From: a virus
Virus genome (UHGV): UHGV-1662509
Reading direction: 5' to 3' (one strand)
Length of the DNA: 18,450 nucleotides
Positions 12,001-15,000 of the stretch are shown one piece after another. Position 1 is the first letter of the stretch. Each line of letters begins with the position of its first letter. Position numbers: made by a program.

Positions 12001-15000
12001 GCCAGGTGTTTTAGCACCGCCACTTCCTCCGCTACCGCCAGCCTTATACATCGCATATGCACCTACCGCACCCAAACCAGCGCCAACAAGAGAGGCTCGC
12101 CCCTGCTGTTTCGTAAACGCAGCCTGTGCGTCCGATTTAGCTTTTGCCAGACTGCTGTCTGCCAGCGAGTTAAAACTCTGTAACGCATCCGCCTTTTGAC
12201 CAGAACCGAGAGCAGCAACATCCTGTAGCCCGGCAACATACTTATCTGCCTGCGATACCTGCCCCCGTGTGGTTGTGTCAATCTGCCCGGTTACCTGATC
12301 ACTCTGGTTCGCATTCATTACCGCGTTAAAGCGACCACTGGACGGGTCAACACCGGACTGAGCAAGATTACCCGCCAGCTCCTTCCGTGCTTCGCCAAAC
12401 TGTTTCTGATACCCCAGATTTGTGGTGCCAGCAATATTGTCGTACTGCTGCTCACTGTTCAGGTCATCGACCTTTTCCATGAAGTTATCTTCAGCCGGGC
12501 GGAGGATTTTTTGATAATCCTGCCACCCTTTCCAGGCCACTTCTTCCTGTGCTATTTGCGCTGCTGTTGGTTTTACTTTGGTATCACCACCGCCTTTTTT
12601 TCCGCCCATTATGGCCCCCTGGATAACAAAAAACCCTGCCGGGGCAGGGTCAGAATGTGAATTGCAATTGGTTTACACACGATAATGAATACAGTGGCAG
12701 TCAGACCGCTATCCTGAACACCATGAAGCCATCCTCATCATCCGGCATTCGCTCAAAGCCCAGACGTTTTCCCAGCCGGATAAATCCCCGTCTTGCCGTA
12801 TGGAATTCAGCCCAGCGTCCGCCAGCCAGACGGGTTAATGTCTTCACCTCCGGCAGATAACGCTCAACGCTGTTACTCCCCGTACACACGCCCAGCAACA
12901 CCAGAACATAAGGGATACCGTCGTCACTGAGCACAGCACGCAGCACCAGAAAACCATCCGGTGCCTCAAAGCAAAACGCCTGCTTTTTAAGGCAGGCGTC
13001 TTTAACTTCATTCATAAATTCAGGGTTGCGGGAATTTCTCACAACACGCTGCATATACCGGAGAATTTTGTCGTCCATTCTCTCACCAGAAACGGGTGCC
13101 ATATCGGCTGAACCTCAGCAACCAGTTGACGGGGACTTTCGTCCCCGTCGCGGTTTTCCTACTGCTTACACTGTAAGAACGCCGCAAACTCCGCTCCCCA
13201 CAAATTCAGCCGGAACTCACACAACGAGCCGTGTAACATCCAGATGGTGAAGATTACCGTCATACAAATTGTGACGGTGATGAGCGATTTTTGCGACATA
13301 GCGCTTGCCTCCTGAGTGGAGAGGCGCTAACCTTCTACTTGCTTAAGGTATGATGGTTAGGGCCTCGGGTTAAACAAAATGTTTGACTCGGGGCCTTTCC
13401 ACATCAGGCCTTCAGGTTCACCTTCCAGCCATCAGCCGAAAGGCACCCGTGCATAATCTACGATTTTTGCCCTGCACGGGCAACAAAAAACCCGCCATCA
13501 CAGCGGGTTATGACATGTTGTCGGGTATTACTCAGAATTTCAGGCCAATGCCTGCAAATAAACCATCAGTTTTCCAGTCGCCAGAGCCTGAGCTTTCATA
13601 AGTGACGTCCATAGTAACACTTTCATTGAAGTTAAATTGCGCGCCGACAGACCATGCAATAGACGTTTTTTTGGTGCTGTTACTTTCAGAAAAACTACCT
13701 ACACCACCATTAAGATTGTCGTTAACTTTCAAATCATAAGTTACTTTTGCAACCGCAACACCTGCCATTGAATACACACTGAGGTATTCATTAAACCGCC
13801 ACGAAGGACCGGATAGTAGACTCCAGTAATTAGCCCTGATATCAGTTCTCGCTGAAGCTGCCGGTTTTTTTACCTCTCGTGATGGATCGGAAGGCTTAAC
13901 ATCAATGAATGCCTGTGCATTAGTCATGGATCGAGCCCATGCAAAAGAGGTTATAACACCGATCTCATCCGTAATCTCATAACGATACTTAATGTTCATT
14001 CCCAAGGGACTTTTCTCTTTACCATCATGGCCCCGGACAAACGCATCGTCATATTCTCCAGGTGAATTGAAATAGTTTTCATTCACAAAATTGTTAAAGG
14101 TATCAAGGTTATGAAGACTTAAATCCTTAACAAAATTATTCAGCCCGGATAACTGAAGGTGAGCGAATCCAAGGGATACGGTACTATCACCAGATGCAGC
14201 ATGTGCCTGTGCAGTTAATCCACCTAAGCCCAGAGTTGCGCACACAAGAAATTTTGTGATACTTTTCATTTTAAGAATCTTCCTATATTAAAAACATTGT
14301 TCTCTCTGTCCTTTCCACATTTTTGATTATTTACCATCCTGCCTGGAAATAAAAAATAAAAATTTTTCTTAAAATGATTGATAAATTTTATTGTGCTAAT
14401 CATACATTGAAGTATTAATAACAAGAACTTTGTCTACATAAGACTTTCGAATATCCCATGTTGCACCACCTGAATAATGCTCACAGGAATATATTTTATT
14501 TCCTGTAGCGCCAGTGGATGTGGTATAAATCGGTCGGTCATAAGGAGTTCTTTTCCAGTTATAATACCCGACCAGTGCAGGCATAATTGCGCATGGATAT
14601 CCAAGGTCCTTTTCAAATTTGATATCAACAGGTATTAACTTCGCGTCAAGCAGCATCATTTCGCCATGGTAAATCATCTCACCCAACGGATTATACATGG
14701 CGATACCATACTCAGAAGGTTGAGTAACCATATTCGCAAAAGCATAAACAGTCGTAACACCAGGATTCGTTCCCCTGACAATTTGATGAAGCCTTAAGGC
14801 ATGATATCCATCAATCTGTTCATGCGTGTACATGACATCGGCCTTCTTCTCTGTTCTGATAAAGAAAAAACAACTTTTTCCTGACGGAATTGACGTTTTA
14901 AAAAAAGCCTTCTCAGTCGCCGGAATAGTTCCCTTATTGATAAGACACTGAGGCGTAAACCCCGGGCTTATCCACAAGCTGCCATCTGGTTTCGTAATGC

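What the first reader, a model, noticed from the sequence alone, without database searches (positions are those of the whole stretch)
13103..13531. Hok/Sok-like type I toxin-antitoxin locus in the lom-proximal intergenic region, missed by the ORF track
Directly seen: a 46-codon minus-strand ORF (13159-13299) encodes MSQKSLITVTICMTVIFTIWMLHGSLCEFRLNLWGAEFAAFLQCKQ, which carries the Hok/Gef signatures (transmembrane helix with C-x-T, SLCE-x-R, E-x-AAF), with AGGAGG 8 nt upstream. The roughly 430-bp region is densely structured: a 15-bp hairpin at 13361-13395 whose G-U pairs exist only on the plus strand (suggesting a plus-strand antisense RNA), an 8-bp inverted repeat around a candidate promoter, and a perfect 9-bp hairpin after the stop. 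Established knowledge: hok mRNAs have long structured leaders and are controlled by a roughly 60-nt Sok antisense RNA. Oddity: I could not find a mok-like overlapping frame with a start codon, so this locus may use a variant coupling mechanism. Functionally it would act as an addiction or abortive-infection module placed beside lom.
Basis: partly seen in the sequence, partly recalled or inferred. Interest (0 to 1): 0.6.

Follow-up and report, generated by a model that had tools for sequence, protein, structure and literature searches.

The report
Second hok/sok toxin-antitoxin cassette beside lom
The gap between lom and the next gene of this Shiga-toxin phage holds a genuine hok/sok-type toxin-antitoxin cassette whose 46-aa toxin is already catalogued and reported toxic, so the find is largely ordinary, except that this subfamily lacks the 'mok' leader frame that the textbook system needs to translate its toxin.

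Summary
The 46-codon minus-strand ORF (13159-13299) is a Hok/Gef toxin: Pfam 33.2 bits against a cut-off of 22, PHROG 251 E=3e-24. Around it lies a complete hok-mRNA/Sok-RNA architecture in a ~375-bp portable cassette (13094-13468). It includes a conserved promoter, 5'-3' tac/fbi pairing, a target stem-loop, a sequestered SD and AUG, and a 3' hairpin with compensatory changes. The plus-strand Sok gene has the same promoter hexamers (TTGCCT, 17 nt, TAACCT) as the experimentally validated sokW promoter.

It is not new. RefSeq annotates it as 'Hok/Gef family protein'. The exact peptide is homologue 72_1589 in a 2025-26 Hok catalogue, which reports it toxic. Relatives occur in 1551 of 5426 complete E. 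coli genomes.

It is not the published hokW-sokW of prophage Sp5. Sp5 carries both loci, and the phage closest to this window carries only this one.

No mok frame exists in any reading frame: ATC sits where mok's ATG should be. None of 52 distinct relatives has an ATG there, yet Hok is under purifying selection. How Hok is translated without mok is unresolved.

The parts
13478..13483 (-). hok promoter -35 (TTGCCC)
   Evidence: Read. TTGCC is kept in the 82%-identity relatives although the 17-nt spacer differs. Not flagged by the consensus scan (8 of 12 matches).
13455..13460 (-). hok promoter -10 (TAGATT); +1 about G13448
   Evidence: Conserved as TAGATT or TAAATT across relatives. It lies 7 nt upstream of the position where the Rfam model of the hok leader begins.
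13094..13448 (-). Full-length hok mRNA (about 355 nt), the transcribed core of the portable cassette
   Evidence: Homology of distant relatives runs 13468-13094 and stops right after GGCACCC. Fold z=-8.2. Consensus structure 98.9% paired.
13434..13448 (-). tac-like 5' element (GGGUGCC..UCGGCU)
   Evidence: Pairs with 13094-13109 (I5 and I11; helices 1-2). Refolds into a local hairpin when the 3' tail is removed in silico.
13094..13109 (-). fbi-like 3' element (AGCCGA..GGCACCC)
   Evidence: 7 + 6 bp with the 5' end. One-sided changes keep the pairing through G-U in 10 and 20 relatives.
13321..13366 (-). sokT-like target stem-loop: 10-pair stem (13366-13356 with 13331-13321, one unpaired position on each side) around a 24-nt hypervariable loop. 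The GAGG box at 13366-13363 corresponds to the mok SD.
   Evidence: Helix 6 (100% paired, no double changes). Loop entropy 0.77 against about 0.05 elsewhere among close relatives.
13352..13354 (-). ATC at the exact position of the mok ATG (GAGG + 8 nt), followed by UAA at 13345-13343
   Evidence: mokW, mokC and mokB have ATG 7-8 nt after GAGG. 0 of 52 relatives have ATG here.
13308..13313 (-). hok Shine-Dalgarno AGGAGG, 8 nt before the ATG
   Evidence: Predicted mostly paired in all modelled states, P(unpaired) about 0.2.
13159..13299 (-). hok CDS, 46 aa + stop (Hok cluster 72)
   Evidence: Pfam 33.2 bits against a cut-off of 22. PHROG 251 E=2.8e-24. dN/dS 0-0.4. Identical to the tested homologue 72_1589.
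13179..13299 (-). 16-bp long-range stem (13299-13282 with 13196-13179) that buries the hok AUG
   Evidence: Helix 8 (98.7% paired, invariant or one-sided changes). Partly seen as I1.
13128..13149 (-). 3' stem-loop (9 bp, GAAA loop), the expected protective end of the 3'-processed mRNA
   Evidence: I6. -19.7 kcal/mol. Compensatory AU<->GC and CG<->AU/GC changes in 16 and 22 relatives.
13305..13310 (+). Sok promoter -35 (TTGCCT), overlapping the hok SD on the other strand
   Evidence: Same hexamer and 17-nt spacing as sokW. TTG is invariant in 52 relatives.
13328..13333 (+). Sok promoter -10 (TAACCT)
   Evidence: Invariant in all 52 relatives. Identical to the sokW -10 that Takada et al. mutated to GAGCCG to silence sokW.
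13340..13402 (+). Predicted Sok antisense RNA (about 60 nt): about 20-nt open 5' tail plus hairpin. Both ends are inferred.
   Evidence: 5' end placed by analogy with the annotated SokC (7 nt after the -10). Fold -30 kcal/mol, z=-6.3. All 27 variants keep the hairpin.
13359..13397 (+). Sok terminator-like hairpin (18 bp)
   Evidence: -27.0 kcal/mol on + against -13.3 on -. The base GGCCTCGG..CTCGGGGC is shared with SokB and SokC.

Best explanation
Window 13094-13483 is a self-contained hok/sok-family type I toxin-antitoxin cassette, carried as a moron between lom and the next gene of an Stx2a-converting phage.

On the minus strand, a conserved promoter makes a roughly 355-nt hok mRNA. Its 5' end pairs with its 3' end (tac/fbi), and its SD and AUG are buried, so the full-length RNA is inert.

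On the plus strand, a promoter that overlaps the hok SD makes a roughly 60-nt Sok RNA. It has an open, highly variable 5' tail and a stable hairpin. It is complementary to the leader stem-loop 40-100 nt upstream of the hok AUG.

The following steps are inferred from homology with R1 hok/sok and hokW-sokW. Slow 3' trimming back to the 3' hairpin frees the 5' end, which refolds and exposes the Sok target. Sok then pairs with the target and the duplex is destroyed, with a partial contribution from RNase III. When the supply of Sok stops, Hok is made and depolarises the inner membrane.

Shown here: family membership of the peptide, the RNA architecture and its conservation and covariation, promoter identity with sokW, and purifying selection on Hok.

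Shown elsewhere: toxicity of this exact peptide.

Not shown: the transcripts, the 3' processing, and how Hok is translated, because the mok leader frame that R1 requires is absent. The biological role (prophage retention, help with lysis on induction as for hokW, or exclusion of other phages) is also open.
For: Peptide: Pfam HOK_GEF 33.2 bits against a cut-off of 22. PHROG 251 E=2.8e-24. The family's conserved residues C-x-T, L-C-E and E are readable in the sequence. The peptide is identical to homologue 72_1589, cloned as LRP157. The preprint reports 42 of 45 tested homologues toxic and names the three exceptions, none of which is this one.

Selection: 7 synonymous and 0 nonsynonymous differences against the Sp5 copy. 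dN/dS is 0.19-0.40 against distant relatives. Indels are in frame in E. albertii and Citrobacter.

RNA: the Rfam sok model matches end to end at E=7e-8. 5'-3' complementarity of 9 + 8 nt lies 320-341 nt apart. Fold z=-8.2. The consensus structure over 52 distinct relatives is 98.9% paired against 37-43% in slid controls. Eleven pairs change on both sides against 2-6. None of 500 shuffles reaches the observed values.

Sok: TTGCCT, 17 nt, TAACCT is identical to the mutationally validated sokW promoter. The hairpin base is shared with SokB and SokC. The strand asymmetry is -27.0 against -13.3 kcal/mol. All 27 variants keep the hairpin.

R1-like behaviour in silico: removing the fbi tail refolds the 5' end and raises target accessibility from 0.15 to about 0.45.

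Cassette: the same ~375 bp occurs beside ogr in P2-like prophages and on an IncC plasmid. 1551 of 5426 E. coli genomes hold a relative.
Against: There is no mok. No ATG, GTG or TTG ORF in any frame reads into the hok SD, in this window or in 32 of 52 relatives, and none has an ATG at the canonical site. In R1, mok translation up to the hok SD is mandatory (PMC9841398).

The hok SD and AUG are predicted to stay closed in the full-length, truncated and Sok-blocked states, so no route to translation is visible.

The Rfam score is below gathering (41.9 against 59) and far below bona fide loci at 110-118 bits.

Neither promoter reaches the consensus-scan threshold.

No transcript, processing or phenotype data exist for this locus. 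The published toxicity assay used a foreign promoter and SD.
Confidence: 0.85

Rival explanations
1. The cassette is a translationally silent relic. It descends from a mok-containing hok/sok locus that lost the mok start. The RNAs may still be made, but Hok is never translated. The locus persists by hitch-hiking, or because the RNAs do something else.
For: No leader ORF reaches the hok SD. SD and AUG are sequestered in every modelled state. In R1, mutations of the mok start codon abolish toxicity. Chromosomal hok loci are often degenerate (Fozo 2010 introduction). Some relatives carry frameshifts at a G-run in hok (L056, L060, L061, L063, L065).
Against: Strong purifying selection acts on the peptide: 7 synonymous and 0 nonsynonymous differences, which under neutrality has a probability of about (0.21)^7. 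dN/dS is about 0.2. Indels are in frame across genera. The hok SD is kept as AGGAGG, AAGGAG or similar. The absence of mok is ancient and shared from E. coli to Salmonella and Citrobacter, while the toxin ORF stays intact. The peptide is toxic when expressed.
Confidence: 0.2
2. Mok-type coupling still operates, through a non-canonical or displaced leader ORF. Candidates are initiation at AUC/AUA at 13354-13349, or the uORF that starts at the conserved AUG 13404 (15 codons here). Its translation would open the leader.
For: AUG 13404, with an upstream GAAGG, is conserved in 50 of 52 relatives. In 8 of them it reads through into hok. ATC sits exactly at the mok-ATG position.
Against: The AUC frame stops after 3 codons (UAA 13345-13343), 30 nt before the hok SD. 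The AUG-13404 ORF varies from 1 to 79 codons, with stops scattered from -100 to +134 relative to the hok ATG, so it is not kept as a frame. In this window it ends 44 nt upstream of the hok SD.
Confidence: 0.12
3. Chance: a random short ORF and unrelated hairpins, for example terminators of neighbouring genes, in an intergenic region.
For: 46-codon ORFs are common. The lom terminator at 13489-13509 (-) is nearby, and the scan finds terminator-like sites above expectation in this region.
Against: HMM E-values of 4e-8 and 2.8e-24. Leader homology to Rfam sok. Covariation. Conservation of the unit in different genomic contexts.
Confidence: 0.01

Closest known systems
hokW-sokW of Sakai prophage 5 / 933W (Takada et al. 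2021, PMC8621323)
   Same: A hok/sok-family type I TA on the same kind of Stx2 phage. The Sok promoter hexamers and spacing are identical (TTGCCT, 17 nt, TAACCT). Both share the GAGG box, the AGGTTAGC..CCTCT leader motif and the overall layout.
   Different: It is a different locus and paralogue. HokW is 51 aa and 36% identical. It lies about 13 kb away near the prophage end. It scores 113.5 bits with Rfam sok against 41.9 here. It has an annotated 70-codon in-frame MokW. The hokW primers are absent from the window. Sp5 carries both loci, and the phage closest to this window carries only this one. The paper does not mention the second locus.
hok/mok/sok (parB) of plasmid R1
   Same: Promoter, tac/fbi closure, SD box in a target stem-loop, buried hok translation-initiation region, 3' hairpin followed by a removable tail, and a Sok gene whose -35 overlaps the hok SD. 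The distance from GAGG to the hok AUG is 67 nt here and 70 nt in R1.
   Different: 34% peptide identity. The peptide is 46 aa against 52. The leader is about 24 nt shorter. There is no mok start codon (ATC in place of ATG, then a stop), whereas R1 needs mok translation. The carrier is a phage rather than a plasmid.
hokA/sokA of E. coli K-12 (Hok cluster 93)
   Same: The closest characterised peptide, 45% identical over 40 aa. Some sources name the window's peptide 'protein HokA'.
   Different: Fails the NCBIfam HokA equivalog (38.4 bits against a cut-off of 89). Falls in a different 60% cluster, 72 against 93. The K-12 locus is disrupted by IS150.
hokC/mokC/sokC and hokB/mokB/sokB of E. coli K-12
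   Same: The Sok hairpin base GGCCTCGG..CTCGGGGC and the Sok position 41-49 nt upstream of the hok ATG.
   Different: Both have a mok ATG 7-8 nt after GAGG and score 110-118 bits with Rfam sok.

Membership tests
Hok/Gef toxin family (Pfam PF01848) | Match to the family HMM above the curated gathering score | tested here: met
   33.2 bits against 22, E=4e-8, profile positions 6-42 of 42. PHROG 251 'MokW-like host killing' 85.8 bits, E=2.8e-24.
Hok/Gef toxin family (Pfam PF01848) | Hydrophobic peptide of about 50 aa with the conserved residues M1, C..T in the helix, L-C-E and a downstream E (logo in 10.1101/2025.08.07.668861) | tested here: met
   Read directly: C12-M-T14, L26-C27-E28 and E37 in the 46-aa peptide. 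Conserved positions as listed.
Hok/Gef toxin family (Pfam PF01848) | Toxic on expression (membrane damage) | not testable with these tools
   From the literature: the identical peptide 72_1589 (plasmid LRP157) was tested. 42 of 45 homologues were toxic, and the three named exceptions do not include it. The assay used a foreign promoter and SD, not the native locus.
hok/sok type I TA locus (R1 paradigm) | Cis-encoded antisense Sok RNA gene: own promoter overlapping the hok SD, open 5' tail, terminal hairpin | tested here: met
   Sequence level only. The promoter is identical to validated sokW. The -10 is invariant in 52 relatives. The hairpin is stable only on the + strand and kept in all 27 variants. 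The transcript itself has not been observed.
hok/sok type I TA locus (R1 paradigm) | tac/fbi pairing between the 5' and 3' ends that closes the full-length mRNA | tested here: met
   13448-13442 with 13100-13094, and 13439-13434 with 13109-13104. 97.7-99.4% paired across relatives, with G-U-preserving one-sided changes.
hok/sok type I TA locus (R1 paradigm) | 3' stem-loop followed by a removable tail, whose loss triggers refolding | tested here: inconclusive
   The hairpin has strong covariation. In-silico truncation refolds the 5' end and opens the Sok target. Actual 3' processing cannot be tested here.
hok/sok type I TA locus (R1 paradigm) | mok: a leader ORF that starts after the GAGG box, overlaps the hok SD and start, and is translationally coupled to hok | tested here: not met
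   ATC at GAGG + 8 nt, and stops in all three frames before the hok SD. 0 of 52 relatives have ATG at that site, and 32 of 52 have no leader ORF at all. The positive controls mokW, mokC and mokB are detected by the same test.
Rfam RF01794 (sok / hok leader) | Score at or above the gathering threshold (59 bits) | tested here: not met
   41.9 bits, E=7e-8, full model length. The Sp5 copy scores 35.6. hokC, hokW and hokB score 118.3, 113.5 and 109.7. There is no hit at gathering in the whole window.
HokA (NCBIfam NF007290 equivalog) | Score above the curated cut-off (89 bits) | tested here: not met
   38.4 bits. 45% identity. Separate 60% cluster, 72 against 93.
hokW-sokW (Sp5) | Same locus or sequence as the published system | tested here: not met
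   The hokW primers are absent from the window at up to 3 mismatches. HokW is 51 aa and 36% identical. It sits at a different position in VT2-Sakai.

The most novel reading that the evidence does not exclude
Hok cluster 72 is a widespread, selectively maintained hok/sok lineage found in Stx phages, P2-like prophages and some plasmids. It may work without any mok leader frame. If so, Hok translation is unlocked, and Sok represses it, by a route different from the R1 paradigm. Possibilities are direct initiation at the strong AGGAGG SD after RNA refolding, with Sok acting only through duplex-triggered decay or through a structural effect on the GAGG/CCUC stem. The two hypervariable patches (Sok tail and loop) would then be specificity determinants that keep co-resident hok/sok pairs, such as hokW-sokW in Sp5, from cross-talking.
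Probability: 0.35. Interest if true: 0.5.

Novelty: already known. Interest (0 to 1): 0.3.

Why it matters
The headline claim, a Hok/Sok-type locus beside lom, adds nothing new. The gene is annotated by PGAP, counted in family censuses, and its peptide has been reported toxic.

Three points are still useful.

First, Stx2 phages of the Sp5/933W type carry two hok loci, and only hokW has been studied. The published delta-hokW-sokW strain still held this one, which may explain the partial, two-fold phenotype. Oslovirus-type Stx2a phages carry only this locus.

Second, this subfamily lacks mok although Hok is under purifying selection. The latest catalogue explicitly left mok unanalysed. This gives a concrete natural test of whether mok coupling is general to the family.

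Third, variation is concentrated in the Sok tail and loop. That pattern is expected for determinants of antisense specificity, and it could be used to study how multiple hok/sok pairs stay insulated in one cell.

Tried and rejected
(1) An anti-SD switch. I proposed that CCUC at 13325-13322 pairs either with the GAGG box or with the hok SD, so that Sok binding would close the SD. ViennaRNA accessibilities give P(unpaired) of about 0.2 for the SD and AUG in the full-length, truncated and Sok-blocked states alike. The idea is not supported.

(2) A mok frame. I searched out of frame and then, after the hokC and hokW controls showed that mok can be in frame, in all three frames. None was found.

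(3) The uORF from AUG 13404 as a mok substitute. Its length and stop position are not conserved.

(4) Identity with hokW-sokW. Rejected.

(5) The 8-bp inverted repeat around the hok promoter as an operator. It is not conserved.

(6) The consensus promoter scan flagged neither promoter. Support for the promoters comes from homology and conservation instead.

It worked with the 55-codon in-frame extension.

(8) Steif & Meyer 2012 (the hok mRNA family) and Gultyaev et al. 2000 were not available, so I could not check whether mok-less hok mRNAs were noted there or in T1TAdb.

(9) YUNR motifs occur in the target loop of 51 of 52 relatives, but about 74% would be expected by chance in a 24-nt loop. 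This is weak evidence and I did not use it.
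Full report
**What is there**

The window is 99.4% identical, across the region studied, to Stx2a-converting short-tailed phages (Sepvirinae). 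The closest records are Escherichia phage Lyz12581Vzw, MN067333, and the LC6454xx series. On the minus strand the gene order is tail-fibre genes, membrane morons, lom (13532-14269; Ail/Lom), a 430-bp gap, then a run of conserved genes of unknown function.

**The peptide is a Hok**

- Pfam HOK_GEF scores 33.2 bits against a gathering score of 22, E=4e-8.
- PHROG 251 ('MokW-like host killing') scores 85.8 bits, E=2.8e-24.
- The NCBIfam HokA equivalog is not reached: 38.4 bits against a cut-off of 89.
- Identity is 45% to HokA, 36% to HokW and 34% to Hok of R1.

The exact sequence occurs on at least 1000 public contigs. Sources name it 'Hok/Gef family protein', 'protein HokA' or 'small toxic polypeptide'. 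PGAP-annotated phage and E. coli records already annotate it at this position.

A 2025-26 catalogue of Hok toxins (bioRxiv 10.1101/2025.08.07.668861) lists it as homologue 72_1589. It belongs to its own 60%-identity cluster, 72, separate from HokA (93), HokW/HokD (35) and Hok-R1/HokB (47). The authors cloned it as pAZ3::72_1589. They report that 42 of 45 tested homologues were toxic and name three exceptions, which do not include it.

**It is not the published hokW-sokW**

Takada et al. (PMC8621323) characterised hokW-sokW in prophage Sp5. HokW is 51 aa (MKQQKAM...DYESEK). Their primers are absent from this window.

In VT2-Sakai, hokW lies at 57.5-57.8 kb and is annotated with a 70-codon MokW. 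A 92%-identical copy of the present locus lies in the unannotated gap between lom and orf66 at 44.5-44.9 kb. Sp5 therefore has two hok loci.

The paper does not mention the second one. Its delta-hokW-sokW strain would still carry it.

In MN067333, the phage closest to this window, the lom-proximal locus is the only Hok-family hit. Record positions 50001-51071, inside the giant ORF, were not scanned.

**The RNA architecture**

I collected 87 related loci. In the more distant relatives, homology runs exactly from 13468 to 13094. That delimits a ~375-bp unit. Its 82%-identical copies sit in a quite different place: just past ogr at the end of P2-like prophages, on chromosomes and on an IncC plasmid. 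Relatives occur in 1551 of 5426 complete E. coli genomes.

Aligning 52 distinct full-length copies and folding them gives a hok-mRNA-like structure:
- A 5'-3' closing stem. GGGUGCC (13448-13442) pairs with GGCACCC (13100-13094), and 13439-13434 pairs with 13109-13104.
- A 10-pair stem (13366-13356 with 13331-13321, with one unpaired position on each side) that carries the GAGG box and encloses a 24-nt loop.
- A 16-bp stem that buries the hok AUG (13299-13282 with 13196-13179).
- The 9-bp 3' hairpin (13149-13141 with 13136-13128).

Across the alignment, 98.9% of cells are paired, against 37-43% when partners are slid by 1-3 columns. Eleven pairs change on both sides against 2-6, and no shuffle out of 500 reaches the observed values. 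The clearest compensatory changes are in the 3' hairpin, in 16 and 22 sequences. One caveat applies: the structure was derived from this same alignment.

The single-sequence fold of 13448-13088 has z=-8.2. The Rfam sok model, which is in hok-mRNA sense, matches 13448-13288 end to end at E=7e-8. At 41.9 bits it is below the gathering score of 59. On the same model hokC, hokW and hokB score 110-118 bits and the Sp5 copy scores 35.6. The leader is therefore a divergent subtype.

**The antisense gene**

On the plus strand, TTGCCT (13305-13310), a 17-nt spacer and TAACCT (13328-13333) reproduce the hexamers and spacing of the sokW promoter. Takada et al. mutated that TAACCT to GAGCCG to silence sokW. 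The -10 is invariant in all 52 relatives.

By analogy with the annotated SokC, the RNA would start near 13340 and run to about 13400. It would consist of an open tail of about 20 nt and an 18-bp hairpin (13359-13397). The base of that hairpin is shared with SokB and SokC.

All 27 sequence variants keep it.

The hok promoter (TTGCCC at 13483-13478 and TAGATT at 13460-13455) is likewise conserved, while its spacer is not. Neither promoter passes the generic consensus scan.

**The missing mok**

I used hokW, hokC and hokB as positive controls. In them mok begins with an ATG 7-8 nt after the GAGG box, in frame with hok in hokW and hokC and out of frame in hokB.

The window has ATC at exactly that position (13354-13352), followed by UAA three codons later. 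All three frames are closed between there and the hok SD.

None of the 52 relatives has an ATG at that site. Thirty-two have no ATG, GTG or TTG ORF in any frame that reaches the hok SD. The others acquire one sporadically through indels.

A conserved AUG at 13404 opens a uORF of 15 codons here. Its length ranges from 1 to 79 codons among relatives, so it is not kept as a frame.

Hok itself is under purifying selection:
- 7 synonymous and 0 nonsynonymous differences against the Sp5 copy.
- dN/dS of 0.19-0.22 against the P2-type copies and 0.40 against S. enterica subsp. diarizonae.
- In-frame indels in E. albertii and Citrobacter.

In R1, translation of mok up to the hok SD is mandatory (PMC9841398). 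The recent catalogue explicitly did not analyse mok. I could not obtain the older comparative papers, so I cannot say whether mok-less hok mRNAs have been noted before.

**How it probably works**

By homology, the full-length mRNA is closed and inert. Trimming of the 3' tail back to the hairpin lets the 5' end refold. In silico this forms a local tac hairpin and raises the accessibility of the Sok-tail target from 0.15 to about 0.45. Sok then pairs with the target and the duplex is degraded. When Sok is no longer supplied, Hok is made.

The step I cannot explain is translation. The SD and AUG stay about 80% paired in every modelled state, including with the Sok site blocked. My idea of a Sok-driven anti-SD switch is therefore not supported.

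The main rival is a silent relic, to which I give 0.2. Purifying selection on the peptide argues against it.

The biological role is untested. The hokW precedent suggests help with lysis on induction. Prophage retention and exclusion of other phages are equally possible.

**Verdict**

The entity is already known as an annotated, catalogued Hok toxin that has been reported toxic.

Three things remain of interest. The locus is unstudied although it sits in medically important phages alongside, or instead of, hokW. Its subfamily lacks mok. Its Sok tail and loop are hotspots of variation: entropy is 0.77 and 0.63, against 0.00-0.06 over most of the cassette (0.26 across the anti-SD/SD stretch), among copies at least 90% identical.

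Noticed in passing
window 13340-13356 and 13371-13382: Among 29 copies at least 90% identical, variation is concentrated 10-20-fold in two patches: the Sok 5' tail (the loop of the target stem-loop) and the Sok hairpin loop and upper stem. Entropy there is 0.77 and 0.63, against 0.00-0.06 over most of the cassette (0.26 across the anti-SD/SD stretch). At least eight distinct tail types exist. This is the pattern expected for antisense specificity determinants, or for mosaic recombination.
   Followed up: partly
L094 3501-3872, L095 3501-3852, L096 3501-3852: The same ~375-bp cassette, about 82% identical, sits immediately past ogr at the end of P2-like prophages. It is found on chromosomes next to tRNA or serS attachment sites, and on an IncC conjugative plasmid. 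The module is therefore shared between unrelated phage types.
   Followed up: partly
L089 (NC_000902.1 44469-44897) and L090 (57501-57827): VT2-Sakai/Sp5 carries two hok loci: this one, unannotated, and hokW/mokW. The hokW-sokW deletion study did not consider the second locus. The closest relative of this window's phage (MN067333) has no hokW.
   Followed up: yes
window 13196-13199 (G-run in the hok CDS): Five relatives (L056, L060, L061, L063, L065) have length changes in this G-run that frameshift the Hok C-terminus, giving products of 44, 71 or 72 aa. These look like natural toxin-inactivating slippage mutations.
   Followed up: no
window 13078-13102: The downstream ORF 12701-13102 is called from an ATG at 13102, which lies inside the fbi element. 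PHROG 610 aligns only from residue 9, so the real start is probably the ATG at 13078, just outside the cassette.
   Followed up: partly
   Followed up: yes
window 12976-12999: A perfect 10-bp palindrome (ACGCCTGCTT TTTA AAGGCAGGCGT), flanked by T-runs on both strands, lies inside the 133-aa ORF. It looks like a bidirectional terminator and attracts weak GlmZ-terminator hits from Rfam. It could be the actual transcription stop for read-through from hok. Not examined.
   Followed up: no
window 13288-13448: The Rfam family named 'sok' (RF01794) aligns in hok-mRNA sense: it starts at the mRNA 5' end and ends at the hok AUG. A hit therefore marks the hok leader strand, not the Sok strand. At gathering threshold it misses the whole cluster-72 lineage.
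   Followed up: yes
window 1547-9898: A 2783-aa ORF of unknown function, conserved in Stx phages, has a central match to the NCBIfam CLCA_X family (residues 1172-1427, 154 bits, below the cut-off of 260).
   Followed up: no
window 13489-13509: The intrinsic terminator of lom on the minus strand (AACCCGC..GCGGGTT followed by T6) abuts the hok -35. It accounts for the weak Trp-leader and Hrs1 hits in Rfam.
   Followed up: yes
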